Shown: positions 21,699 to 54,736, counted from the stretch's first letter. The stretch is DNA of 64,000 nucleotides from a bacterium (GCA_040390065.1 JAZJZE010000009.1:520556-584555); one strand, 5' to 3'. Program-made: numbers and translations. Notes: generated by a model not told the origin, from the letters alone.

Positions 21699-21830
21699 AC
21701 GTGACTGGCGAACCGTCGCTGCGCTCCGGTTCACCAGCGCTCGCTGAGGATGCTCGGCTGCTACCCTCCGGGTCCGCGTTGACAAGCCGGCCGCCGAGGC
21801 CAGCCGCGCAGGGAGGTCATCACGCGTTCT

Positions 21831-21857
21831 GTTCCATCTGTTTCATCTGTTGACCAG
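21831..21857 (+). repeat. 9-bp-phased array GTTCCATCT GTTTCATCT GTTGACCAG
   Basis: Read directly from the sequence. It lies in the 322-bp convergent gap between the ABC-2 permease gene and pyrF. It shares ATCTGTTGACCAG with 45143-45170. Confidence 0.7.
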
Positions 21858-28357: not shown

Positions 28358-29848
28358 ATGGCCATGCCGCCCGCCGCACCCACGACGACGGCGGAGGAGC
28401 CGCCCGCGGAAGGCGGGCTGCGGCGCGACCTGAACCTCTTCGGCGCCGTCTCGATGATCGTCGGCATCGTGATCGGCTCGGGCATCTTCATCGGTGTCAA
28501 CCGCGTGGCAGCCGGCGCCGGGTCGCCTTGGCTCATCATCCTCGTCTGGGTCATCGGTGGCCTTCTCACCTTGATGGGCGCCTTGACGTACGCGGAACTG
28601 GGCGTCATGTTCCCCCGCGCCGGCGGTCCGTACGTGTTCCTTCGCGAAGGACTCGGCCCGCTCCCCGCGTTCCTTGCCGGCTGGACGACCTTCACGGTCA
28701 ACCTCGCAGGCTCCGCCGCGGCTCTTGCCCTGGCCTTCGCGACGCAGTTCAACCAGTTGCGCCCCGGCGGCTGGATGCCGCTGTTTCCCGACCACCCGGA
28801 ATGGTCGGCCAAGATCATCGCAGCCTGCGTCATCCTGCTCATCGCGATCCTGAACTACTTCGGCCTGCGCCTCGGCGGCAACGTGCAGAAGTCGCTGACC
28901 GTGCTGAAGGGCACCCTCATGGTCTTCCTGGCAGCGGCGGCCCTCTTCTGGTTGGGCAACTCCGCGTCCCCCGTGCCGGGCCTGTTCGACGCGCCAGCAT
29001 ACCAGACGCAGGCCGCGGCCGCCGCCCCCGTCATCCATGAGGGTTTCGACCTCGCAGGATTCTTCGGACTGGCCCTCGTCGCAGCGCTGTTTGCGTACGA
29101 CGGCTGGACCAACGTCACGACCGTCGGCTCCGAGATCAAGAACCCGTCGCGCAACCTGCCGCGCGCAATGCTCCTCGGCATCGGCGCGGTCATCGTGCTC
29201 TACATCCTCCTGAGTTTCGGCTACATGCATGTCCTCGGCCTGCAGGGCTTCGCGGACGGCAAGTTCGCCGGCTTCGGCGACGCGAGCAAGGTCGCAGGCA
29301 ACACCGCCTCCGTGCTGTTCGGGGACGCCGGATTGCGCATCGTCGCCGCCACCATCCTCGTCTCGGTGCTTGGCAGCCTGAACGGCATCACGATTTCCGG
29401 GCCGCGTTACTACTACGCCATGGCGCGCGACGGGCTCTTCCCGCGCTTCTTCGGCGGCGTCAACCGGCACCATGTCCCCGGCCACTCCATCTGGGGGCAA
29501 GCCATCCTGAGCGTGCTGTTCCTGCTGTTTCTGGACTTCGACCAGCTCACCAACAACGTCGTCTTCGTCTCGCTCTTCTTCTACTCCCTGTGCGCCGTGG
29601 CTCTCCTGGTCCTGCGCCGGCGCCGCCCCGACTTGCCACGACCGTACAAGGTGCCGCTCTATCCCTGGATCCCCCTCACGTACATCGCGGCGAGCATGCT
29701 CTTTGCCGGCTACCTCACTTACCAAGCGGTGCTCGACGCAAGCGGCATGGCGTACCGCTTCCTCGGCCTCGCCATCATCGCGGCTGGCGTCCCGATGTAC
29801 TACGCCTTCCGCTGGTACTACCGCCGCGGGACGCCGCAGCCCAACTAG
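28358..29848 (+). CDS. APC-family amino acid/polyamine permease
   Basis: ORF of 496 aa with LFGAVSMIVGIVIGSGIFIG, TYAELGVMFPRAGGPYVFL and about 12 TM segments. Confidence 0.9.
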   Translation: MAMPPAAPTTTAEEPPAEGGLRRDLNLFGAVSMIVGIVIGSGIFIGVNRVAAGAGSPWLIILVWVIGGLLTLMGALTYAELGVMFPRAGGPYVFLREGLGPLPAFLAGWTTFTVNLAGSAAALALAFATQFNQLRPGGWMPLFPDHPEWSAKIIAACVILLIAILNYFGLRLGGNVQKSLTVLKGTLMVFLAAAALFWLGNSASPVPGLFDAPAYQTQAAAAAPVIHEGFDLAGFFGLALVAALFAYDGWTNVTTVGSEIKNPSRNLPRAMLLGIGAVIVLYILLSFGYMHVLGLQGFADGKFAGFGDASKVAGNTASVLFGDAGLRIVAATILVSVLGSLNGITISGPRYYYAMARDGLFPRFFGGVNRHHVPGHSIWGQAILSVLFLLFLDFDQLTNNVVFVSLFFYSLCAVALLVLRRRRPDLPRPYKVPLYPWIPLTYIAASMLFAGYLTYQAVLDASGMAYRFLGLAIIAAGVPMYYAFRWYYRRGTPQPN

Positions 29849-39072: not shown

Positions 39073-39810
39073 ATGTTCAAGGCCAAGGTCAAAGTCGAAG
39101 TCCTCACCACCGTTCTCAATGCCGTGTCGACGTTGGTGGACGAGGCCAAGATCCAGTTGACGCCGGAAGGCCTGAACCTGAAGGCCGTCGACCCCGCCCA
39201 CGTCGCCATGGTCGACCTCAGCCTTGGCAAGAAGGCCTTCGCCGAGTACAAGGCGACGGACATGGACATCGGCGTCGACCTCGACAAGCTGAAGGACATC
39301 CTCAAGCTCGCCGGCGGCCAGGACACCATCGACATCGAGTACAAGGAAGACGCGCACAAGCTGGTCTTCAAGATCGGCCACGTCACGCGCCGCATGTCGC
39401 TCGTCGACACGGCCAACATCAACGACCCGAAAGTGCCAAACCTCAACCTGCCCAACCAAGTCACGGTCCTGGCCCGCGAACTGAAGAACGGCATCCGCGC
39501 CTCGGAGGCCGTCTCCGACCACATCGCCCTCGTGGCGCACGGCAAGTCGTTCGAGCTCCTCGCCGAAGGCGACACGGACCAGGTTCACCTCAAGCTCGAG
39601 GGCGACGATATCATCAAGATCCAGGCGCCGGACAAGTCGCGCAGCCTCTTCTCGCTCGATTACTTCAGCAACATGGCGAAGGTCGTCGGCGACGCAAGCG
39701 CCATCACGCTGCACCTCGGCTCCGACTACCCCGTCCGCATCGAGTTCGACATCGCGGACGGGGCGGGACACATCGTGTACCTTCTGGCGCCGCGTATCGA
39801 GAGCGAATAG
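39073..39810 (+). CDS. pcn: DNA polymerase sliding clamp PCNA
   Basis: ORF of 245 aa. MFKAKV...LNAVSTLVDEAKIQLTPEGLNLKAVDPAHVAMVDL, the two-domain repeat and the C-terminal YLLAPRIESE are typical of archaeal PCNA. Confidence 0.95.
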   Translation: MFKAKVKVEVLTTVLNAVSTLVDEAKIQLTPEGLNLKAVDPAHVAMVDLSLGKKAFAEYKATDMDIGVDLDKLKDILKLAGGQDTIDIEYKEDAHKLVFKIGHVTRRMSLVDTANINDPKVPNLNLPNQVTVLARELKNGIRASEAVSDHIALVAHGKSFELLAEGDTDQVHLKLEGDDIIKIQAPDKSRSLFSLDYFSNMAKVVGDASAITLHLGSDYPVRIEFDIADGAGHIVYLLAPRIESE

Positions 39811-39812
39811 GC

Positions 39813-40196
39813 ATGCGGGCCGCCGCGGGGCTCTGCGTCGTCGCCGCCCTGCTTGTCGCCGGTTGCTCGGGCGGCAGTTCGCCGACCCTGGACCGCACCT
39901 TGCCGGGCGCGGCCCACATTTCCGGCTCCGGGTTCTCAACGAATGTCCAGACGGACCATGTCCAGTGCGCCGCCCACGGGCACATGGATGTCCATACCAA
40001 CGGTTTCGGCACCTTGACCGTGGATTTGCGCGACGCATCCGGTCGCTTGGTCTTCACGGTCACGACCGTAAATCAAGGCGAGACGACCCGTCACGAGGAC
40101 GTCAACGGCACGGCCGGAGTCTGGACGCTGACGGTCGACCCGGGCGCGCCCCACTACCAGGGCGACTTCGACGTCAAGCTCGACTGCAAGGTCTAA
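39813..40196 (+). CDS. Small lipoprotein, paralog 1 of a tandem triplet
   Basis: In frame with ORF 39000..40196. ATG 39813 lies 2 nt after the PCNA stop. MRAAAGLCVVAALLVAGCSGG; ends GVWTLTVDPGAPHYQGDFDVKLDCKV. Confidence 0.7.
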   Translation: MRAAAGLCVVAALLVAGCSGGSSPTLDRTLPGAAHISGSGFSTNVQTDHVQCAAHGHMDVHTNGFGTLTVDLRDASGRLVFTVTTVNQGETTRHEDVNGTAGVWTLTVDPGAPHYQGDFDVKLDCKV

Positions 40197-40246
40197 GCGG
40201 CACGCCGGCCCCCTAGATTCATGAGGCCTCTCACGATGGCGAGGAC

Positions 40247-40657
40247 GTGCGCGCCCTGGCGACCCTGCTCGTGCTATTGTCCGTTGCCGCCTTCACGTCG
40301 GGCTGCGCCTCCCCACAACCCGAGAACCTCTCCGGCCACTACGCCTACATCGACTGGAACGAATCGACCCAGTCGTGCACCAACAACAATTGTGATTACG
40401 GCACGAACAACCGCGTCCTCACCTACAACGTGACCTGCGGACCCGACCCTATCCTCAGTTGGGACCTCAAGAACTGGATCCACGGCTCCATGGTCGTGCG
40501 CGTCCTCGACCCGACCGGCGCGCAGGCGGACAAGCGGACGTTGTCCAGCAACAGCCACGGCTCCGCGCCCATGCACGGCCCGGGAGGTGCGTGGACTCTG
40601 GAAGGCACGAGCCACGACGCCAACGGCAACTTGCAGGTCCGGCTGACCTGCGCGTAG
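40247..40657 (+). CDS. Small lipoprotein, paralog 2
   Basis: ORF of 136 aa (GTG start). MRALATLLVLLSVAAFTSGCAS; ends GAWTLEGTSHDANGNLQVRLTCA. Confidence 0.7.
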   Translation: MRALATLLVLLSVAAFTSGCASPQPENLSGHYAYIDWNESTQSCTNNNCDYGTNNRVLTYNVTCGPDPILSWDLKNWIHGSMVVRVLDPTGAQADKRTLSSNSHGSAPMHGPGGAWTLEGTSHDANGNLQVRLTCA

Positions 40658-40688
40658 GTTCAAGAGACCCTCTCATGATGAGCGGGGC

Positions 40689-41066
40689 ATGCGTGTCGCG
40701 GTCGTCGCCATCGTCGTCCTCCTGGCCGGTTGCTCGGCGCCCCTCCGGCTGCGCATCGACGTCCATGACTCCTACGGTGGCACGACGACGATCAACGGCG
40801 ACGTCCGCTACAACCCGACGGGCCACCAGCAGGACTACACGGCCTCGTGTGGCGGCACCGGCCACCTCAAGGTCGGCCTGTCCGAGTACCATCTGGGCGG
40901 AGCCGCGTTCGTGGCCAAGGACGCCGGCGGCATCGTCCTCGCGGAGATTCACCTCAACCAGGTGGACTCGCAGGAGCGCGACATCTCCGGCGGAGCGGGG
41001 ATGTGGCTGGTCCACGTGGGCCTGGACCGCTTCAACGGCGCCTTCGACTTGCAACTCTCCTGTTGA
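40689..41066 (+). CDS. Small lipoprotein, paralog 3
   Basis: ORF of 125 aa. MRVAVVAIVVLLAGCSAP; ends GMWLVHVGLDRFNGAFDLQLSC. Confidence 0.7.
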   Translation: MRVAVVAIVVLLAGCSAPLRLRIDVHDSYGGTTTINGDVRYNPTGHQQDYTASCGGTGHLKVGLSEYHLGGAAFVAKDAGGIVLAEIHLNQVDSQERDISGGAGMWLVHVGLDRFNGAFDLQLSC

Positions 41067-41107
41067 CCCCCCCAAAGTCTGAAGGGGAAAGCCGGCGTGG
41101 CCCAAGC

Positions 41108-42235
41108 GTGGCCGACCTGGTCCGCCTGGCATTCTACCCGTTCCTGCCGGAGGTGCGGGACGCGGTGCGCGAGGCCGGACCTGACCTGGATGCGGTGCTT
41201 CGTTCGCCCCTGTACCAGGGTGTGCGCAGCCGGGCGGTGCAGCGCGTCGAGGGCGCGCTCGGCGACGGCTTTGGCCCGGCTCAGGTCGTCGACGAACGGA
41301 CCGGGCTCCTCGAACTCCTCTCCATCCCGGTCGCGCGCATGCTCATCGTCCTGCTCGGCGAGAAAGGCGTCGTGCCGCGCTACGCCGCCGCCGAAGCCCG
41401 CCTCGTGCATGACCGCATCGTCGCCGACCACGACGACGAAGCCGTCGTGCAGGCCGCCGCCGCCCTCGGCATCCCGGCCGAGGGAACAGACTCCGTATGG
41501 CGGATGCACTTCTCGGCCTACATCCGCCTGGCTCCCGTGCACTTGCCGCAATGGAAGCTGCTGCGGCGGCCCGTGCAGGCCGGCAACGTGTGGCTGGACC
41601 GCAGTGACATGGCGAGACTCATCGAGGAGGCCTTGAAGCGCCGCATCGCGGACGACCTCGATGCAGAGCGGGCCAAGCCGCTGCCGGAGGAGGTCAAGGC
41701 CGCCCTCGCCCCGTTGGTCGAGCGACTTGCTCCGCGGCTCGAGGAAGCGCGCGAAGCGTGGAGCCAAGGCGACTTCGGTCCCGTCAAGCCCGAGTTGTTC
41801 CCGCCGTGCATCAAGGAGATTTTCGAGTCCCTGAAGCGCAGCGAGAACGTGCCGCACCACGGCCGCTTCGCCTTCGCCACCTTCCTGCACACCGTTGGCT
41901 GGAACTCCGAGGCCATCCTGGATTACCTTGCATCGACGCCGAACTTCGACCGCGAGAAGTCACGCTACCAGATCGAGCACGTGACGGGCGGCAAATCCGT
42001 GCAGGCGTACACGCCACCCGGCTGCGGCACGATGCAGACGAACGGCGTCTGCCCCCTGGCCAAGCGTGACGGCTTGTGCTTCAAGATCAAGCATCCGCTC
42101 AGCTACTACCGGGCGCAACTCAAGTTCAGGGCGCGTGACGAGGAGAAGGCGGCGGCGATTCTGGCTGCGACGACCCCGTCACAACCGCCGATACCGCCGA
42201 TGACGCCGAACGCCGCCTCGGAGGTTAGGCCGTGA
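41108..42235 (+). CDS. priL: DNA primase large (regulatory) subunit PriL
   Basis: In frame with ORF 40847..42235, starting at GTG 41108 (VADLVRLAFYPFLPEV). The C-terminal Fe-S domain has FPPCIKEI...YTPPGCGTMQTNGVCP...DGLCFKIKHPLSYY. Confidence 0.92.
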   Translation: MADLVRLAFYPFLPEVRDAVREAGPDLDAVLRSPLYQGVRSRAVQRVEGALGDGFGPAQVVDERTGLLELLSIPVARMLIVLLGEKGVVPRYAAAEARLVHDRIVADHDDEAVVQAAAALGIPAEGTDSVWRMHFSAYIRLAPVHLPQWKLLRRPVQAGNVWLDRSDMARLIEEALKRRIADDLDAERAKPLPEEVKAALAPLVERLAPRLEEAREAWSQGDFGPVKPELFPPCIKEIFESLKRSENVPHHGRFAFATFLHTVGWNSEAILDYLASTPNFDREKSRYQIEHVTGGKSVQAYTPPGCGTMQTNGVCPLAKRDGLCFKIKHPLSYYRAQLKFRARDEEKAAAILAATTPSQPPIPPMTPNAASEVRP

Positions 42236-42247
42236 CGCCGACGGAAC

Positions 42248-42320
42248 GAACCACTGAAACCACTGAACGCACTGAAACGCCGGACGGTAGTTCAGTGGGT
42301 TCAGTGAGCTCAGTGGTTAG
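42248..42320. repeat. Inverted pair of triple 9-bp repeats (CACTGAA x3 / TTCAGTG x3)
   Basis: CACTGAA at 42253, 42262 and 42271. (T/C)TCAGTG at 42291, 42300 and 42309. The arms can pair over about 24 of 30 positions. It starts 13 nt after the priL stop. Confidence 0.8.
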
Positions 42321-42505
42321 GGCGGCGGTGCCGCGTGGTTGACGCCCCCCGAATCGCCCAGAACACTGAGCGCGTTGAACGTGTCGTGGGTAGCCCAGTG
42401 AAGTCCGTGCGTTCGGTGGCTCGGCCGGGGTCCAGACGGAGCACCGACAGTGGAAAGGGAGGGTTGAGCGTTGTCTCGAGGCCGTATGTTCCGCGGGCGA
42501 CGTTC

Positions 42506-42847
42506 ATGTTGCGGCTGGCCTCCGTACTACTTGCGCTCGTCAGCGTGACTCAGATATTGGTCTCCCTTGCGCGCCTTTTCTCCCTTCGCCCTTGGGCGAT
42601 TGGCTTCTTCATCTCTGGCCTCCTGGCCGGATGCGCGGCGTGGGGCGCCTGGAACAGCAAGGCTTGGGCGCGCTGGGTGAGCTACGCGAGCCTGGCCGTG
42701 GCGGCCGCGGCGACGGCAATTGGTAGCTACGGACAGTCATGGGCCTGGCTGGCCTGGTGGTGGTGGGCCGGGTCGTACCTCTGGCCTGAATTGGCCTTGC
42801 ATGCCGCGATGATCCGTCGCCCCTTGGCCGAGGTGCCGCGTGCCTGA
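42506..42847 (+). CDS. Small Trp-rich membrane protein (113 aa)
   Basis: Within ORF 42335..42847. ATG 42506 gives MLRLASVLLALVSVTQILV, with 3-4 TM segments. It overlaps the priS start by 8 nt. Confidence 0.55.
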   Translation: MLRLASVLLALVSVTQILVSLARLFSLRPWAIGFFISGLLAGCAAWGAWNSKAWARWVSYASLAVAAAATAIGSYGQSWAWLAWWWWAGSYLWPELALHAAMIRRPLAEVPRA

Positions 42848-44216
42848 CGCATCCGATTCGTCGGTGAAATCGGTGGTTCCGCCCGAGGCGAAACCAACCG
42901 CGCCCGAGCAACCTCCAGCTAAACCTCCGCAGCCCACCACGTTCCCCCCCGCCGTCGCGAAGACGATTGACTGGCTGCAAGGCCAATACGCCGATTGGTA
43001 CCGCGACAACCCGCCACCGATGCCGGACCGCTTCACGCGCCGCGAATTCGGTTTCATCCTGTGGCCAGACAAGCCGGGGCCGCCGCCATTTGTCCGGCAC
43101 CGCGCGTACGAGAACGCCGATCGCTTGCATTGGTACTTGCAGAAGCAGGGTCCGCACTCGGCGTACTACTCGACGGCGTACTACCGCCGGCCGGGCGAGA
43201 TGAAGATGCTCGACAAGCAGTGGCTCGGCGCGGAACTCATCTTCGACTTGGACGCCGACCACCTCGTCGAAGCCGAGAAGGCGAAGGCGGAAGGCCACGA
43301 GATGCCGCTGGCCGAGCAGCTCGCACTCGTCAAGACGCAGTTCAAGCGCCTTCTTGACGAATTCCTCTTCGGCGACTTCGGCCTCGGAGAAGACGACGTG
43401 TGGATCACGTTCAGTGGCGGCCGCGGCTACCACGCCCACGTCATCGAGGAGCGCCTCATGCAGTTGGATTCCAAGGCGCGGCGCGAGATCGTCGACTACA
43501 TCACCGGCAAGGTGCCGACGGAGAAGGGCACCGAAAAGCCGGACCTGTCGCTGTTCATCACGGAGACCACCGTTGCCGCGGATTCGTTTGCCGGACGCAC
43601 CAAGAAGCTCACTCAGGAGCGCATGGCGCCGGCGGGGACGCCCGGATGGCCCGGTCGCCTTACGCGCACGCTGGCCCAGACGTTGCGGACGCACGTGCTC
43701 GATGCCGAAAAGAAGGACGCCAAGCGGTGGCTCACCAGCATGGACGGCATCGGCGAAGGCGGGGCCACGAAGTTCATCGAGCGCTTCGATGAGAAGTCCC
43801 TGGCCCGCATCGAGCAAGGGTTCGTCGACCAGGGCCCAGTCATCCGTCGCATCTGTTACCACGTCCTGCAGCAGGCCACGATCCCGATGGCCAAAGGCGA
43901 GACGGACGAGCCCGTCACGGCGGACACGAAGCGCCTCATCCGCCTGCCGGGAAGCCTGCATGGCAAATCGGGGCTCAAGGTCGTGACCTTGCGCCGCGAC
44001 GACTTGGACGCCTTCGAGCCGCTGCGCGACGCGGTCGCGTTCAGCATGGAGCCGACGCGCATCGTGCCCCGCAACGACGCCGAGATGACGCTGGCAGGGG
44101 AACGCGTCGTCGTGAAGAAGGGCGAAGCCGTCGACGTGCCGAAAGCGCACGCCGTCTTCTGGCTGGCGCGCCAAGGCGGGACGATTTTCCAGGAGCAGCC
44201 GTCCACCAACCGTTAA
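42840..44216 (+). CDS. priS: DNA primase small (catalytic) subunit PriS with Pro-rich N-terminal extension
   Basis: ORF of 458 aa (GTG start). The catalytic motifs ELIFDLDADH and ITFSGGRGYHAHV are present, plus RLIRLPGSLHGKSG. Confidence 0.93.
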   Translation: MPDASDSSVKSVVPPEAKPTAPEQPPAKPPQPTTFPPAVAKTIDWLQGQYADWYRDNPPPMPDRFTRREFGFILWPDKPGPPPFVRHRAYENADRLHWYLQKQGPHSAYYSTAYYRRPGEMKMLDKQWLGAELIFDLDADHLVEAEKAKAEGHEMPLAEQLALVKTQFKRLLDEFLFGDFGLGEDDVWITFSGGRGYHAHVIEERLMQLDSKARREIVDYITGKVPTEKGTEKPDLSLFITETTVAADSFAGRTKKLTQERMAPAGTPGWPGRLTRTLAQTLRTHVLDAEKKDAKRWLTSMDGIGEGGATKFIERFDEKSLARIEQGFVDQGPVIRRICYHVLQQATIPMAKGETDEPVTADTKRLIRLPGSLHGKSGLKVVTLRRDDLDAFEPLRDAVAFSMEPTRIVPRNDAEMTLAGERVVVKKGEAVDVPKAHAVFWLARQGGTIFQEQPSTNR

Positions 44217-44240
44217 ACGCCCGGTGCCGCTCAAAGGGTC

Positions 44241-45065
44241 GTGGCGGAAGAGGGACGCGATGCACCCCGGCAGGGCACGCACACCTCCGCCCGACCGGCC
44301 GCAACCGACGCGGAGAAGGAGGCGGTCTCCTACGAGATGCTGCAGGACCTCCTGCGCTCCGAGCGGCGCAGCAACAAACTCATGCCGGTGACGGCGCGCT
44401 TCTGGTTCCTCGTGCGCGAATTCCTGGAGGCGGTCACGAACGAGTTCCGGGCCGAGCAGGCGAAGGACCCCTTCAGCCGCAAGGTCATGCTTCTGACGGA
44501 CGAAGTCAAGAACGCTCGTCACGCCGCCGAGTCGCTTTGGGCTTTGCGTGAACGCAAGCTCGCAATGTTGGCCCTGGCTGCGACGAAGGACCGCAAGCGC
44601 CCGGAAGGTGTCACGCCCGACGAGGCCGAACTGTACGATGGCTTCCTGCAGGCGCTTGGAACCGCCCGCACGCGGTTGTTCGACGGCCTCCTGCCGCCGC
44701 CCACGCTCCAGCCGCCGCCCGTCCCGGTCCCGAGTCCCGCACCCGGCGCGACGACGGCGCCGCCCGTGCAGATGCCGATCCAGGAGCCGCCGCGGCCTGA
44801 CGCGAAGGCCCCAGTCATGTCGGTCCCGGTGGCACCGCCTCCTCCCGCGACGGCAGCCGGCGGCCCGGGTGTCCACGTCGTCCCCCACGACACCACCCAA
44901 ACCGTGCAGATGGTCACCATCCGGGCCCTCGGCGACATTCCGCCTTTCGTCGGCCCCGACATGCAGACGTACCTGCTCAAGGCCGGCGACCTCGCAACGG
45001 TCCCGCCGAGCATCGCGAACCTGCTGGTGAGGCGAAACAAGGCGGCCATCGTCAACATGGGCTGA
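44241..45065 (+). CDS. gins51: GINS complex subunit Gins51 (Gins15) with long Pro-rich A-B linker
   Basis: ORF of 274 aa. The A-domain has YEMLQDLLRSERRSNKLMPV...FLVREFL...EVKNARHAAESLWALRERKLAMLA. The B-domain has VTIRALGDIPPFVGPDMQTYLLKAGDLATVPPSIANLLVRRNKA. It sits directly after priS, as is usual in archaea. Confidence 0.8.
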   Translation: MAEEGRDAPRQGTHTSARPAATDAEKEAVSYEMLQDLLRSERRSNKLMPVTARFWFLVREFLEAVTNEFRAEQAKDPFSRKVMLLTDEVKNARHAAESLWALRERKLAMLALAATKDRKRPEGVTPDEAELYDGFLQALGTARTRLFDGLLPPPTLQPPPVPVPSPAPGATTAPPVQMPIQEPPRPDAKAPVMSVPVAPPPPATAAGGPGVHVVPHDTTQTVQMVTIRALGDIPPFVGPDMQTYLLKAGDLATVPPSIANLLVRRNKAAIVNMG

Positions 45066-45142
45066 ATCCGCCCGCTCGGGTCAACAGATGCTCGAGATGA
45101 CGACGGCTTTTCCGTCACGACTTCGCCTCCGTCGTCGGCATC

Positions 45143-45170
45143 GGTTTCATCGGTTCAATCTGTTGACCAG
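45143..45170 (+). repeat. 9-bp-phased array GGTTTCATCG GTTCAATCT GTTGACCAG
   Basis: Read directly from the sequence, 78 nt downstream of the gins51 stop. Near-copy of the array at 21831-21857. Confidence 0.7.
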
Positions 45171-45202
45171 GAGTCGTCTCGGGGGCGACGCGACATCACC
45201 TC

Positions 45203-45210
45203 CAAATAGG
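45203..45210 (+). promoter_or_regulatory. TATA-like box for ORF 45233
   Basis: CAAATAGG is centred about 26 nt upstream of the ATG. Confidence 0.35.
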
Positions 45211-45232
45211 CCCGCGAAACTCGCCGAGAACG

Positions 45233-45580
45233 ATGCCCGACCGCACCCCCTTCCGCAAGCAGCCGTTCTCGGATGAGGAAGCGGAGAAACTGTACCACAA
45301 CTCGCACGACCTTCGCGAGATGTACACGCGGGAGAACACGGAACGCCGCCGCGCCGGGGCGCACACGCTTCGCCGCTACCTGACGACGGCGCAGGATAAG
45401 CTTCTCACCGCCCACATGACGAAGATCCGCGACGAGTACGAGACAGCCAACAACGACGACGTCGTCGTGGTGTTCGTGCAGAAGGCCATCGCCGAGGGAA
45501 AGACAGCCGAGTTTGCTCCGCAGCTCGTGGAGTATGCGAAGAAGGCCGTCGTGCCGAAGCGGACGACGCCGGTATACTAG
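45233..45580 (+). CDS. Hypothetical protein (115 aa)
   Basis: ORF 45233..45580. CAAATAGG (45203-45210) lies about 26 nt upstream of the ATG. The protein is helical and charged. No family recognised. Confidence 0.6.
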   Translation: MPDRTPFRKQPFSDEEAEKLYHNSHDLREMYTRENTERRRAGAHTLRRYLTTAQDKLLTAHMTKIRDEYETANNDDVVVVFVQKAIAEGKTAEFAPQLVEYAKKAVVPKRTTPVY

Positions 45581-45711
45581 TCGGCGTTCAGGCTAAATAC
45601 CACCTCCGTGTCGCCAACCTTGCCTTCCGTAGATTTCCCCGCCACCGCATCCCTTGGGAGCGGACGTCGGGACAGTCTTCGCCGTTGGAAGGCCGGCGAA
45701 GGTGTGATACC

Positions 45712-46008
45712 ATGAAACTCCCCCGCACCGTGAAGCGGTACTGCCCTTCGGCCAAGTGCCAGAAGCACCAGGACCACGACGTCGAACGCGTCAAGAAACG
45801 CCGCGCCAGTGAACTCAGCTGGGGTCAGAGGCGGTTCCGCAAGGTCACCTCCGGTTACACGGGTTTCCCCCGTCCGAAGCCCGAGGGCCGCGAGAAGCCG
45901 ACGAAGCGCATCTTCCTGAAGTACGTCTGCAAGGTGTGCAAGAAGGCCCACCAGCCGGCCGCCTTCCGCGCCAAGAAGTTCGAACTCATCGAGGTGAAGG
46001 GCAAATGA
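45712..46008 (+). CDS. rpl44e: 50S ribosomal protein L44e
   Basis: Within ORF 45685..46008. ATG 45712 gives [22 protein letters not shown]...CKVCKKAH (Zn-ribbon Cys pairs). Confidence 0.93.
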
Positions 46009-46181: not shown

Positions 46182-46197
46182 TCTTGCGTCCAACGGT

Positions 46198-46319
46198 GTC
46201 CAGGTTTGGCCCTTAGCGCAAGCTCGGCCAGCATTGGAATCCACAGAATCCTGCGTCGAAGCGCTGTCAAGGTTTGGCCCCCGCGCCGAGCTCGCCCAGC
46301 ATTGGAATCCACCGAATCC
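46198..46319 (+). repeat. Two ~54-bp direct repeats (46198-46251 and 46266-46319)
   Basis: GTC(C/A)AGGTTTGGCCC..GC.C.(A/G)AGCTCG(G/C)CCAGCATTGGAATCCAC(A/C)GAATCC occurs twice, 68 bp apart, between the convergent rps27e and membrane-protein genes. Confidence 0.8.
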
Positions 46320-46360
46320 ACAGAAAGTAGCGGGCGGTTTCGGTGGATTCAGTGGATTCC
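46304..46360 (-). terminator. 18-bp-stem hairpin built from GGAATCCAC 9-mers; candidate 3'-end hairpin
   Basis: GGAATCCACCGAATCCAC (46304-46321) pairs with GGTGGATTCAGTGGATTCC (42-60 of the same kb). The single C-A mismatch on plus becomes G-U on the minus strand. It lies 19 nt downstream of the minus-strand stop at 46379. Confidence 0.4.
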
Positions 46361-47898: not shown

Positions 47899-48319
47899 TC
47901 GAAACCAACCAACTTGCGGCCACGTCAACCTCCGACGGCGGCGACGCGCACGAGGTGGCCGCTTGCTTGAGTTTGGGCGGCCTGGAAAAACAGTGAACCC
48001 CATGAAACGGCAGGCGACAGGACATCGGTTTCCCTGGGTTCGGGTGGTGCACTATTTTCCGCGGCCTCCCACACTCAGCGACGCCCCGCAAGCAAGATGA
48101 ATCCCAGCCCCCCCGGCGGCCCCCGCGCGCTCGCTACGCATCGCGCACTGGCCTCGCCCTCGCACGCCCGCGCTGCGCTGCGGGCTGCTCGCCCCGACCG
48201 GGGGCCCGCTTCGCCTTTCCTCCATTCCCTCAAGGCGTCGGCGCCGTCGGAGGACGACGGGAATGGCTCGGTGGCTTGGACAAGCAGGAATCAGTCCAAT
48301 CCGTGCAATCCGTGGTTCG
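47899..48319. repeat. Left copy of long inverted repeat (IR-L)
   Basis: Reverse complement of 54268..54736. Identical blocks include 48063-48085 = rc 54550-54572 (23 nt), 48243-48270 = rc 54327-54354 (28 nt) and 48088-48106 = rc 54529-54547. The centre is diverged and carries indels. Confidence 0.85.
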
Positions 48320-54267: not shown

Positions 54268-54736
54268 CGAACCACCGAACGCACAGAACATACCGAACCG
54301 CCGGGGAACCTACGTGTCCAAGCCAACGAGCCATTCCCGTCGTCCTCCGACGGCGGCGACGTCGTGAAGGAATGGCAGGAGACTGGGGCGACGCCCGGTC
54401 AACCGACGCAACGGACGCAACCGACACCGACGAGCCCCCGGCCGGGGCGAGCGACTGCGCCGCGAAGCGCGCAGAGCGAGGGCGTGGCAAGCCGCGAGGC
54501 GAAGCCGCGGCGAGGGCCGCCGGGGGCCTGGGATTCATCTTGCTTGCAGGGCGTCGCTGAGTGTGGGAGGCCTCGGAAAACAGTGAACCACCCGAAACCA
54601 GGGAAACCCATGTCGTGTCTCCTGCCCTTTCATGTGGTTCACTGTTTTTCCAGGCTGCCCACACCCCACTATGCGGCCACCTCGTGCAAGTCGCCGGCGC
54701 CGCAGGATGATGTGGCCGGGAGGTGGTTGGTTTCGA
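54268..54736. repeat. Right copy of long inverted repeat (IR-R)
   Basis: See IR-L. It contains an internal palindrome, GGAAAACAGTGAACCAC (54575-54591) against GTGGTTCACTGTTTTTCC (54634-54651). Confidence 0.85.

What the first reader, a model, noticed from the sequence alone, without database searches (positions are those of the whole stretch)
42248..42419. Triple CACTGAA / TTCAGTG 9-bp iteron-like arrays form an inverted structure directly between priL and priS
Thirteen nt after the priL stop the sequence reads three CACTGAA units, then a short spacer containing GCCGGACGG, then three (T/C)TCAGTG units. Unit spacing is exactly 9 bp in each arm. The arms are imperfectly complementary (about 24 of 30 positions), so the locus could be a long RNA hairpin at the priL 3' end or a symmetric array of protein-binding sites. 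Downstream, at 42407-42419, lies GTGCGTTCGGTGG. This 13-mer recurs on the opposite strand at 54272-54284, at the inner tip of IR-R. CCACTGAAAC resembles the core of archaeal origin-recognition boxes, and the locus sits inside the replication gene cluster. The origin reading is weak, as explained under rejected items.
Basis: seen in the sequence. Interest (0 to 1): 0.6.

Follow-up and report, generated by a model that had tools for sequence, protein, structure and literature searches.

The report
Repeat hairpin copy between primase genes
The hairpin between the two primase genes is not a replication origin but one gene-less copy of a scattered repeat family whose full-length versions carry a small nuclease gene of unknown function, a pairing seen here in both archaea and bacteria.

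Summary
Window 42249-42318 holds 3 CACTGAA units, a 14-nt loop and 3 (T/C)TCAGTG units at exact 9-bp spacing, 13 nt after the priL stop. It folds strongly (z = -7).

It is not specific to this locus. The genome (a 2.68-Mb Thermoplasmatota MAG) has about 67 such 9-base-unit ("nonamer") elements, 35 of them strict hairpins. ACNGA triplets at period 9 number 78, against 0-2 at any other period. Nearly all are intergenic and lie close to gene 3' ends.

The family is confined to one genus, and the unit sequence differs between species. The same genus is also where GxxExxY (PF13366, PD-(D/E)XK) nuclease genes occur: 13 of 13 genomes, against 1 of 28 outside it. Most of these genes sit between inverted nonamer arms of matching unit. 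Five of six bacterial GxxExxY loci checked show tandem-unit arms too, four with 9-bp units.

I read the priL-priS hairpin as a non-autonomous, REPIN/MITE-like copy inserted into a junction that was originally a stop/start overlap. Older decayed arms now encode the PriL tail and the PriS head. No RAYT transposase is present.

The origin reading is rejected.

The parts
42249..42276 (.). Left arm of the intact hairpin: AAC + 3 nonamer units (CACTGAA at 42252, 42261, 42270).
   Evidence: The same GAAC-(CACTGAANN)n arm is seen at about 13 other loci of the genome.
42277..42290 (.). Loop ACGCCGGACGGTAG, which can form a small CCG/CGG stem of its own.
   Evidence: Loops differ between copies in sequence and length.
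42291..42318 (.). Right arm: TTCAGTG (42291, 42300) and CTCAGTG (42309), followed by GTT.
   Evidence: It pairs with the left arm at 24 of 28 positions. The fold of 42249-42318 is -41.6 kcal/mol, z -6.9.
42181..42217 (+). Older, decayed left array (ACCGCCGAT, ACCGCCGAT, GACGCCGAA) that now encodes the C-terminal tail of PriL.
   Evidence: family D1; C9:562738-562765. The sister genome G004 has intact CACCGAT x3 at the same place in its PriL tail.
42855..42880 (+). Older right array (TCGGTGAAA TCGGTGGTT) that now encodes residues S-V-K-S-V-V of the PriS N-terminus. It is the partner of the PriL-tail array, now about 640 nt away.
   Evidence: The same SVKSVV stretch is present in G004 PriS.
42350..42419 (.). 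Decayed second hairpin of the same family.
   Evidence: (D1 fifth copy; I2, I9). It no longer folds better than shuffles (z -0.6).
42327..42342 (+). GGTGCCGCGTGGTTGA, a degenerate copy of the GGCCGCGTGGCT module that adjoins family-A hairpins at other loci.
   Evidence: Comparison with flanks of C9:217735, C11:32377, C9:102690 and C9:191976. Weak.
41108..42235 (+). priL (primase large subunit). The start is approximate.
   Evidence: Pfam PF04104. Crude gene call and codon-position GC profile.
42506..42847 (+). 113-aa hydrophobic ORF inserted between the hairpins and priS. Its stop overlaps the priS start region.
   Evidence: No Pfam match. G004 carries a different 156-aa ORF at the same place.
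42840..44216 (+). priS (primase small subunit). The start is at 42840 or 42864.
   Evidence: Pfam PF01896..
54272..54296 (+). Another family member: the one-armed array CCACCGAAC GCACAGAAC ATACCGAAC, which holds the second copy of the 13-mer.

Best explanation
The hairpin at 42249-42318 is a gene-less, non-autonomous copy of a dispersed family of palindromic repeats. Each arm of these repeats is 2-3 tandem 9-bp units with the core C(A/G)C-N-GA.

Full-length versions of the family have the same left and right arms, but the arms enclose a roughly 120-aa GxxExxY / PDDEXK_3 nuclease gene. The short hairpins look like internal-deletion derivatives, with the left arm fused to the right arm through a short loop. 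In that respect they resemble MITEs relative to transposons, or REPINs relative to RAYT genes.

The copy studied here lies in the priL-priS junction, which in relatives without elements is a 4-nt stop/start overlap. An older element had already been absorbed there, and its arms now encode the PriL tail and the PriS head. The intact CACTGAA hairpin, a second decayed hairpin and a small ORF lie inside that older element.

**Shown:** family membership, the 9-bp phasing, the intergenic and 3'-proximal placement, the restriction to one genus, the absence of RAYT, the physical bracketing of GxxExxY genes by matching arms in archaea and bacteria, and the nuclease fold with conserved catalytic residues.

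**Inferred:** that the nuclease recognises the nonamer units (one unit type per paralogue) and spreads or maintains the hairpins; that new copies land preferentially in or beside resident copies; and that any effect on primase expression is a by-product.
For: **Phasing**
- CAC.GAA dimers: 36 at period 9, 0-1 at periods 7-14.
- ACNGA trimers: 78 at period 9, 0-2 elsewhere.

**Dispersal**
- 21 CAC.GAA loci, 35 strict hairpins and about 67 elements, on 10 contigs.
- Polarity is fixed: 35 hairpins have the ACNGA arm first, against 4 the other way round.

**Placement**
- 33 of 35 hairpins are intergenic (p 8e-19).
- The median distance to a gene 3' end is 68 nt, against 431 nt for random intergenic points.

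**Taxonomy**
- Abundant in 10 of 13 genomes of the genus; 0-2 hits in each of 28 genomes outside it.
- The dominant unit differs by species. The CACTGAA variant has more than one hit only in G000, G004, G008, G010 and G012, and a single hit in G003.

**Partner gene**
- PF13366 is found in 13 of 13 genus genomes and in 1 of 28 outside.
- At least 20 of about 30 genus copies are bracketed by inverted nonamer arms of matching unit. One of them, G010:C119, has CACTGAA arms.
- The G010 long forms keep subterminal segments of the gene-bearing unit.
- The proteins score well above the cut-offs for PF13366 and TIGR04256.
- The AlphaFold model has pLDDT 96. Its best solved-structure matches are Cas4 SSO0001 and RecB-family nuclease domains. 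D64, E74, K76 and Q88 are invariant.

**Beyond archaea**
- In Gemmatirosa, the gene lies between two complete GAAC-(CGCAGAGGN)x3 hairpins, and each of two replicons holds at least 39 copies.
- Three metagenomic bacterial loci have 9-bp-unit arms.
- Sphingomonas has 8-bp-unit arms.

**This junction**
- It is a stop/start overlap in G006, G007 and an outgroup.
- A nonamer hairpin is present in 9 of 12 genus genomes, with 6 or more unit types. It is translated in G005 and G011.
- The unit at the junction matches a GxxExxY-associated unit of the same genome in G004 and G005.
Against: - No CACTGAA-armed GxxExxY gene is present in this assembly (89% complete). This subfamily may therefore be orphaned here.
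- I found no target-site duplication, no empty-versus-filled site pair with exact boundaries, and no transposition intermediate. Movement is inferred, not seen.
- A 120-aa PD-(D/E)XK nuclease is not a known transposase. Nothing is shown about how cutting would lead to copying.
- Copies within the genome are diverged in loop and unit number, so recent activity is not evident.
- The G000 and G004 hairpins at this junction are about 90% identical while 4-fold codon sites are near saturation (44-50% identity against 39% by chance). The same junctions are occupied in many species. Both facts would also fit selection for a host function.
Confidence: 0.72

Rival explanations
1. The hairpin is a selected cis-acting RNA structure in the priL-priS transcript. 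It could be a 3'-end stabiliser for priL or a decoupler of priL and priS translation, as REP hairpins act in some bacterial operons. On this view its resemblance to other copies reflects a shared host function at many gene ends.
For: - The fold is very stable on the sense strand.
- Copies lie typically 15-40 nt after stop codons.
- The junction is occupied in 9 of 12 genus genomes, and a second junction after ABC-F in 5 of 9.
- The G000 and G004 copies are about 90% identical although synonymous sites are near saturation.
Against: - Two genus members and an outgroup keep an overlapping stop/start with no hairpin.
- Unit sequence, unit number and loop differ freely between species.
- The hairpin is translated in G005 and G011.
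- Spacer positions between units are near-random in complementarity, so stem stability as such is not optimised.
- No T-run follows the stem.
- The element is palindromic, so no strand preference can be read.
- The link to GxxExxY genes is not explained by this view.
Confidence: 0.15
2. The arrays are duplex-DNA binding sites for a host chromosome-organising or regulatory protein, used at many loci, and have nothing to do with mobility.
For: - The 7-nt core of each unit is conserved with free spacer bases.
- Phasing is strict at 9 bp.
- There are tens of sites per genome.
Against: - The unit sequence changes between sister species and several unit types coexist in one genome. A single host factor would not tolerate that.
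- Arrays occur inside coding sequence.
- Each unit type is tied to its own flanked nuclease paralogue.
Confidence: 0.08
3. The locus is a replication origin or origin-recognition-box cluster placed in the replication gene cluster.
For: - CCACTGAAAC loosely resembles mini-ORB cores (my knowledge).
- The neighbours are PCNA, PriL, PriS and GINS.
Against: - About 67 dispersed copies lie next to unrelated genes.
- The orc1/cdc6 genes are on contigs C11 and C5.
- Canonical mini-ORB words occur once each and elsewhere; CCACTGAAAC occurs only in family members.
- GC content stays at about 65% with no AT-rich unwinding stretch.
- The same junction is a 4-nt overlap in relatives.
Confidence: 0.01

Closest known systems
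REPIN-RAYT systems of bacteria (Bertels & Rainey 2011, PMC3116915)
   Same: - Short extragenic palindromes form hairpins from two inverted halves.
- There are tens of copies per genome, in several sequence groups.
- Each group is tied to one single-copy gene that is itself flanked by the repeats.
- Copies persist at the same positions in related species.
   Different: - The flanked gene is a PD-(D/E)XK (GxxExxY) nuclease, not a Y1/HUH tyrosine transposase. PF01797 is absent from all 13 genus genomes.
- Each arm is a tandem array of 2-3 nine-base units rather than one REP sequence.
- The carriers include archaea.
MITEs derived from transposons with multiple subterminal transposase-binding repeats (my knowledge: e.g. 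Tn7 ends, CACTA/En-Spm, Ac/Ds)
   Same: - Short gene-less forms share both ends with a gene-bearing form.
- The ends consist of repeated short binding-site-like units in inverted orientation.
- Long forms keeping subterminal sequence exist in G010.
   Different: - No target-site duplication was seen.
- The enclosed gene is not a recognised transposase.
- The units directly abut at a 9-bp period.
Rickettsia palindromic elements (RPE) and mycobacterial MIRUs (my knowledge)
   Same: - Repeat copies are tolerated in frame inside genes or at operon junctions, and read through as protein. Here that applies to the PriL tail and PriS head, and to the whole hairpin in G005 and G011.
- The unit length is a multiple of three.
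   Different: - There is no sequence relationship.
- RPEs and MIRUs have no known flanked nuclease gene.
- MIRUs are direct tandem repeats, not hairpins.
Cyanobacterial STRR heptamer arrays (my knowledge)
   Same: Short tandem units (7 nt there) are dispersed in intergenic DNA, and arrays are sometimes inverted.
   Different: - The unit length and sequence differ.
- No partner gene has been established.
- This comparison was not tested here.

Membership tests
REPIN-RAYT | Dispersed extragenic palindromes made of two inverted repeat halves that can form a hairpin | tested here: met
   35 strict hairpins and about 67 elements; 33 of 35 are intergenic.
REPIN-RAYT | A RAYT (Y1 tyrosine transposase, PF01797) gene flanked by the repeats | tested here: not met
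   0 of 13 genus genomes have PF01797. The control search found it in 6 reference genomes.
MITE of a known transposon | Terminal inverted repeats shared with an autonomous element that encodes a transposase | tested here: inconclusive
   The arms are shared with gene-bearing units, but the gene is a GxxExxY nuclease. The only DDE transposases found (C43, C4) have no nonamer ends.
MITE of a known transposon | Target-site duplication at the element ends | tested here: not met
   No recurrent direct repeat appears at the boundaries of the 35 hairpins. The boundaries themselves are not sharply defined.
Archaeal replication origin (ORB/mini-ORB cluster) | One to a few loci per genome, beside orc1/cdc6, with ORB repeats around an AT-rich stretch | tested here: not met
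   About 67 loci. orc1/cdc6 are at C11:201611-202906 and C5:165523-166713. There is no AT-rich stretch here.
Intrinsic-terminator-like hairpin | G+C-rich stem followed by a T-run | tested here: not met
   0 sites found in 41900-43100.
Known RNA families (Rfam 15) | A match at gathering score | tested here: not met
   0 matches in the whole window. No tRNA or tmRNA either.
GxxExxY / PDDEXK_3 (for the partner gene, not the hairpin) | A score above the curated cut-offs of PF13366 and TIGR04256 | tested here: met
   122-125 bits against a cut-off of 22, and 131-134 bits against a cut-off of 35.
GxxExxY / PDDEXK_3 (for the partner gene) | PD-(D/E)XK fold with the catalytic D...ExK residues | tested here: met
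   Model pLDDT is 96.4. The top solved match is Cas4 SSO0001 (E 1e-4, TM 0.58), followed by RecB-family nucleases. D64, E74, K76 and Q88 are invariant in 41 sequences.
GxxExxY / PDDEXK_3 (for the partner gene) | Nuclease activity on, or binding to, the nonamer arms | not testable with these tools
   This needs biochemistry.

The most novel reading that the evidence does not exclude
GxxExxY (PF13366/TIGR04256) proteins are a widespread family listed as 'function unknown'. On this reading they are the trans-acting partners of a cross-domain class of mobile or self-maintaining hairpin repeats.

Each paralogue would read its own 9-bp unit (core C-R-C-N-G-A) repeated three times per arm. It would cut hairpin or cruciform DNA and so spread or preserve gene-less copies, which lodge at gene 3' ends and operon junctions and are sometimes translated.

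The many protein-unit pairs would then amount to a natural protein-DNA recognition code. The priL-priS hairpin would be one footprint of that system.
Probability: 0.4. Interest if true: 0.8.

Novelty: new variant of a known kind. Interest (0 to 1): 0.62.

Why it matters
For this locus, the result removes a tempting but wrong idea, namely an origin or a primase-specific control element. It also shows how a tightly coupled essential gene pair has been pried apart by repeat insertions, with parts of those repeats now translated as protein tails.

More broadly, the hairpin belongs to a repeat class that I could not find described. The only full-text mentions of GxxExxY/PDDEXK_3 list its function as unknown or name it in passing.

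The consistent bracketing of GxxExxY nuclease genes by matching tandem-unit arms, seen in one archaeal genus and in Gemmatimonadota, Sphingomonas and metagenomic bacteria, gives a testable function to a large uncharacterised protein family. It also points to a second REPIN-like system, independent of RAYT.

Gemmatirosa kalamazoonensis KBS708 is cultured, so the idea can be tested at the bench.

Tried and rejected
- **Rfam and tRNA scans** of the window found nothing.
- **Terminator and promoter consensus scan** found nothing.
- **Origin reading** was rejected. I also looked for ORB-like repeats beside both orc1/cdc6 genes and found none with an 11-mer screen, so the true origins remain unlocated.
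- **RAYT/IS200 partner** is absent.
- **Genes lying between neighbouring elements in G000** are ordinary housekeeping genes (aIF2-beta, ABC-F, hydrolase, desaturase). Simple flanking by two elements is therefore not informative.
- **Multi-copy protein screen for transposases** found only two diverged DDE_Tnp_1 genes, without nonamer ends.
- **Integron attC idea** (GTTAGGG after the stem, different small ORFs at the junction in G000 and G004) was dropped. The copies are dispersed rather than arrayed, and R'/R'' cores do not fit. This rests on inspection only.
- **K-turn or other RNA motif in the periodic internal loops** has no support.
- **The second hairpin at 42350-42419** does not fold better than shuffles, so I treat it as decayed.
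- **Sequence search of solved structures** for the nuclease found no relative.
- **Gene calls used for the placement statistics are my own crude ORF/GC3 calls** (76% coverage). The distances for random points are therefore inflated.

Full report
**1. The observation**

- The priL ORF (PF04104) ends with TGA at 42235. priS (PF01896) starts at 42840 or 42864.
- From 42249 the sequence reads AAC-CACTGAA-AC-CACTGAA-CG-CACTGAA, then the loop ACGCCGGACGGTAG, then TTCAGTG-GG-TTCAGTG-AG-CTCAGTG-GTT.
- Unit starts are exactly 9 bp apart. The 28-nt arms are 86% complementary.
- As RNA the region folds at -53.4 kcal/mol, z -7.2. The opposite strand folds nearly as well, as expected for a near-palindrome.
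- The 13-mer at 42407-42419 recurs at 54272-54284 on the other strand. It is two adjacent units of the same kind (the reverse complement of CCACCGAAC-GCAC).

**2. It is one copy of a dispersed family**

The window is C9:520556-584555 of a 2.68-Mb, 67% G+C assembly. Its PriL relatives are Thermoplasmatota MAGs.

The bare heptamer is not enriched genome-wide: 124 copies against about 150 expected. The phased arrays are a different matter.
- CAC.GAA dimers number 36 at period 9, and 0-1 at periods 7, 8 and 10-14.
- CAC.GA dimers number 87 at period 9, against at most 15 elsewhere.
- The shared core ACNGA forms 78 trimers at period 9, against 0-2 at any other period.

Chaining these gives 185 arrays, 35 strict hairpins and about 67 elements on 10 contigs. 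Polarity is fixed: the ACNGA array is the 5' arm in 35 cases and the 3' arm in 4.

Three unit types dominate:
- GAAC-(CACTGAANN)n, the type studied here, at about 13 loci.
- GGAAT-(CCACNGAAT)n.
- GTCAAC-(AGATGNAAC)n, about 40 loci.

Seven family members lie in this window alone.

Between paired units the 7-nt core is complementary. The two spacer positions are complementary in only 45-55% of cases, close to shuffled partners (31-51%). The conserved object is therefore the unit, not a continuous helix.

**3. Where the copies sit**

With my own crude gene calls (2,203 genes, 76% coverage):
- 33 of 35 hairpin midpoints are intergenic (p 8e-19).
- 30 of those 33 have a gene 3' end as a neighbour.
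- The median distance to that 3' end is 68 nt, against 431 nt for random intergenic points (p 2e-6).

Genes lying between neighbouring elements are ordinary housekeeping genes. No T-run follows the stem here. There is no Rfam or tRNA match.

**4. Taxonomic range**

ACNGA trimers at period 9 are abundant (14-132 per genome) in 10 of 13 genomes of the same genus. They are rare in 3 genus genomes and essentially absent (0-2) from 28 genomes of other genera, families and orders. A reversed-pattern control gave 0-4.

The dominant unit differs by species: CACGGAT in G003 and G007, CACAGAT in G002. The exact CACTGAA dimer is found in G000 (24), G004 (9), G008 (19), G010 (86) and G012 (3), plus a single hit in G003. 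That is a patchy pattern relative to PriL similarity.

**5. History of the priL-priS junction**

Gene order PCNA - small ORFs - PriL - PriS - GINS51 - ... - L44e is conserved.

State of the junction across genomes:
- In G007, G006 and the outgroup L010, the priL stop and priS start overlap (ATGA or GTGA).
- Nine of 12 genus genomes carry nonamer arrays or hairpins exactly there, and G009 keeps remnants.
- The units differ: CACTGAA (G000, G004), CACAGAG and GCAGATT (G004), CACAGAT (G002), CACGGAT (G001), CGCGAA (G008), CGCAGATT (G005, G010), CACGGA/CGCGAA (G011), CACGAAT (G012).
- In G005 the hairpin straddles a TTGA overlap, so the left arm encodes the PriL tail and the right arm the PriS head. 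In G011 the whole hairpin is read as PriL tail.

In G000 the same older layer is visible. A decayed array at 42181-42217 encodes the PriL tail, and TCGGTGAAATCGGTGGTT at 42861-42879 encodes S-V-K-S-V-V of PriS. Both are shared with G004. Between them lie the intact hairpin, a decayed second hairpin (z -0.6) and a 113-aa ORF. G004 has a different ORF there.

The G000 and G004 CACTGAA hairpins align at about 90% identity. Four-fold codon sites of priL, priS and PCNA are only 44-50% identical, against 39% by chance.

A second junction, after the ABC-F gene, behaves the same way: 5 of 9 genomes carry a nonamer hairpin, each with its own unit.

So junctions stay occupied while the unit sequence turns over. 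The nested layers at priL-priS suggest that new copies land in or beside old ones. That last step is inference.

**6. The partner gene**

No Y1/RAYT transposase exists in any of the 13 genus genomes, although the control search worked. The only transposase-like paralogues in G000 are two DDE genes without nonamer ends.

In G010 the CACTGAA arrays are often 80-100 nt apart. At G010:C119 they enclose a 121-aa ORF. That ORF is a GxxExxY / PDDEXK_3 protein (PF13366 at 125 bits, TIGR04256 at 134 bits).

G000 has four such loci:
- C17:28745-29092 lies between CAACAGATG-type arms (28701-28727 and 29116-29146).
- C3:83960-84307 lies between GGAATCCACNGA-type arms.
- A frameshifted copy at C5:19070-19430 lies between arms of another palindromic repeat (GGCCTGGAAAAACAGTGAACC...).
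- C1:389136 is a fragment.

PF13366 occurs in 13 of 13 genus genomes (1-8 copies) and in 1 of 28 outside. That is the same range as the arrays.

Of about 30 genus copies inspected, at least 20 are bracketed by inverted arms of three nonamers with matching unit. Each paralogue has its own unit. Three more are bracketed by the other palindromic repeat types of these genomes.

The unit at the priL-priS junction matches a GxxExxY-flanking unit of the same genome in two cases: G005 (CGCAGAT) and G004 (CACCGAT).

The polarity of the gene-bearing units (GAAC-CAC.. arm upstream..GTG-GTTC arm downstream) equals that of the gene-less hairpins. The G010 long forms retain subterminal pieces of the gene-bearing unit. 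Both facts fit derivation by internal deletion.

**7. Beyond this genus**

- On a Gemmatirosa kalamazoonensis megaplasmid, the GxxExxY gene lies between two complete hairpins GAAC-(CGCAGAGGN)x3 ... (NCCTCTGCG)x3-GTTC. A search with one hairpin found at least 39 places in each of two replicons, the reporting limit.
- Three metagenomic bacterial genes have 35-47-nt inverted arms of 9-bp units (CACCGATG, CGCAGATTT, CRCNGAT). One is wedged between a serC-like gene and serA.
- In Sphingomonas parapaucimobilis the gene sits between fabD and fabG, with arms of 8-bp CGCGA units.
- Treponema shows only a 16-nt inverted repeat. The one archaeal copy outside the genus shows no arms.

**8. What the protein looks like**

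An AlphaFold model built from 41 homologues has pLDDT 96.4. Its closest solved structures are Cas4 SSO0001 (E 1e-4, TM 0.58) and the nuclease domains of AddAB/AdnAB, lambda exonuclease and RecE. Hjc-type resolvases match more distantly.

D64, E74, K76 and Q88 are invariant and Y92 nearly so. By my knowledge these correspond to the D-ExK and QxxxY motifs of RecB-like nucleases.

The literature I could search lists PDDEXK_3 as 'Unknown' (PMC3424549). It mentions GxxExxY only in passing.

**9. Verdict**

It is not an origin and not a primase-specific signal.

The family behaves like REPINs or MITEs, but it fails the defining RAYT test. It is tied instead to GxxExxY nuclease genes. That the nuclease reads the nonamers and spreads or maintains the hairpins is my inference (about 0.4-0.6).

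A secondary RNA-hairpin effect on the operon cannot be excluded, because RNA runs could not be queried.

Earlier notes of this scan on the same genome had already described a nonamer-armed family with CATCNGTTG units and a nuclease gene flanked by repeats. I reached the family independently and tested the nuclease link across 13 genomes and in bacteria.

Noticed in passing
window 42506-42847: A 113-aa hydrophobic ORF with a coding-like codon-position GC profile sits between the hairpins and priS, and its stop overlaps the priS start region. It has no Pfam match. The sister genome G004 has an unrelated 156-aa ORF at the same place (L005:7375-7845).
   Followed up: partly
window 21825-21851, 45141-45163, 46311-46353, 48288-48315, 54274-54296, 54402-54424: Six further nonamer arrays or hairpins of the same superfamily lie in this window. 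At 46194-46319 there are also two 58-nt direct repeats ending in GGAATCCACNGAATCC.
   Followed up: partly
genome-wide, e.g. window 47968-48008 and 54558-54598: The motif GAGTGTGGGCGGCCTGG (70 hits with up to 3 mismatches) is the outer end of at least three other palindromic repeat types (GGGAGAACAGGAA..., GGGATTGCGGGGA..., GGAAAAACAGTGAACC...). Family-A hairpins are often inserted just outside it. Some GxxExxY genes are bracketed by these types instead of nonamer arms.
   Followed up: partly
G000 C17:28701-28760: The CAACAGATG units of the left arm supply in-frame ATG codons directly upstream of the GxxExxY reading frame (MKQMQQMPCAGGRDPRTY...). The frame also runs on through the right arm without a stop.
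   Followed up: no
L094 (Sphingomonas parapaucimobilis NZ_CP155749, 482837-483265): A GxxExxY gene is wedged between fabD and fabG, with 25-nt inverted arms made of 8-bp rather than 9-bp CGCGA units. Unit length is therefore not fixed across the protein family.
   Followed up: no
window 39073-46008: The cluster reads PCNA (39073-39810), three poorly conserved small ORFs, PriL, PriS, GINS51-like (44241-45065), a 115-aa ORF, and ribosomal protein L44e (45712-46008). This is the known archaeal linkage of replication and ribosomal genes.
   Followed up: partly
G000 C43:11941-13308 and C4:101650-102990: Two diverged DDE_Tnp_1 transposase-like genes with a Cys/His-rich N-terminus lie in similar multi-gene contexts, possibly integrated elements. 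They have no nonamer ends.
   Followed up: partly
homologue list: Many GxxExxY homologues in public metagenomes lie on very short contigs (0.5-2 kb). That would be expected if the genes are flanked by assembly-breaking repeats.
   Followed up: no
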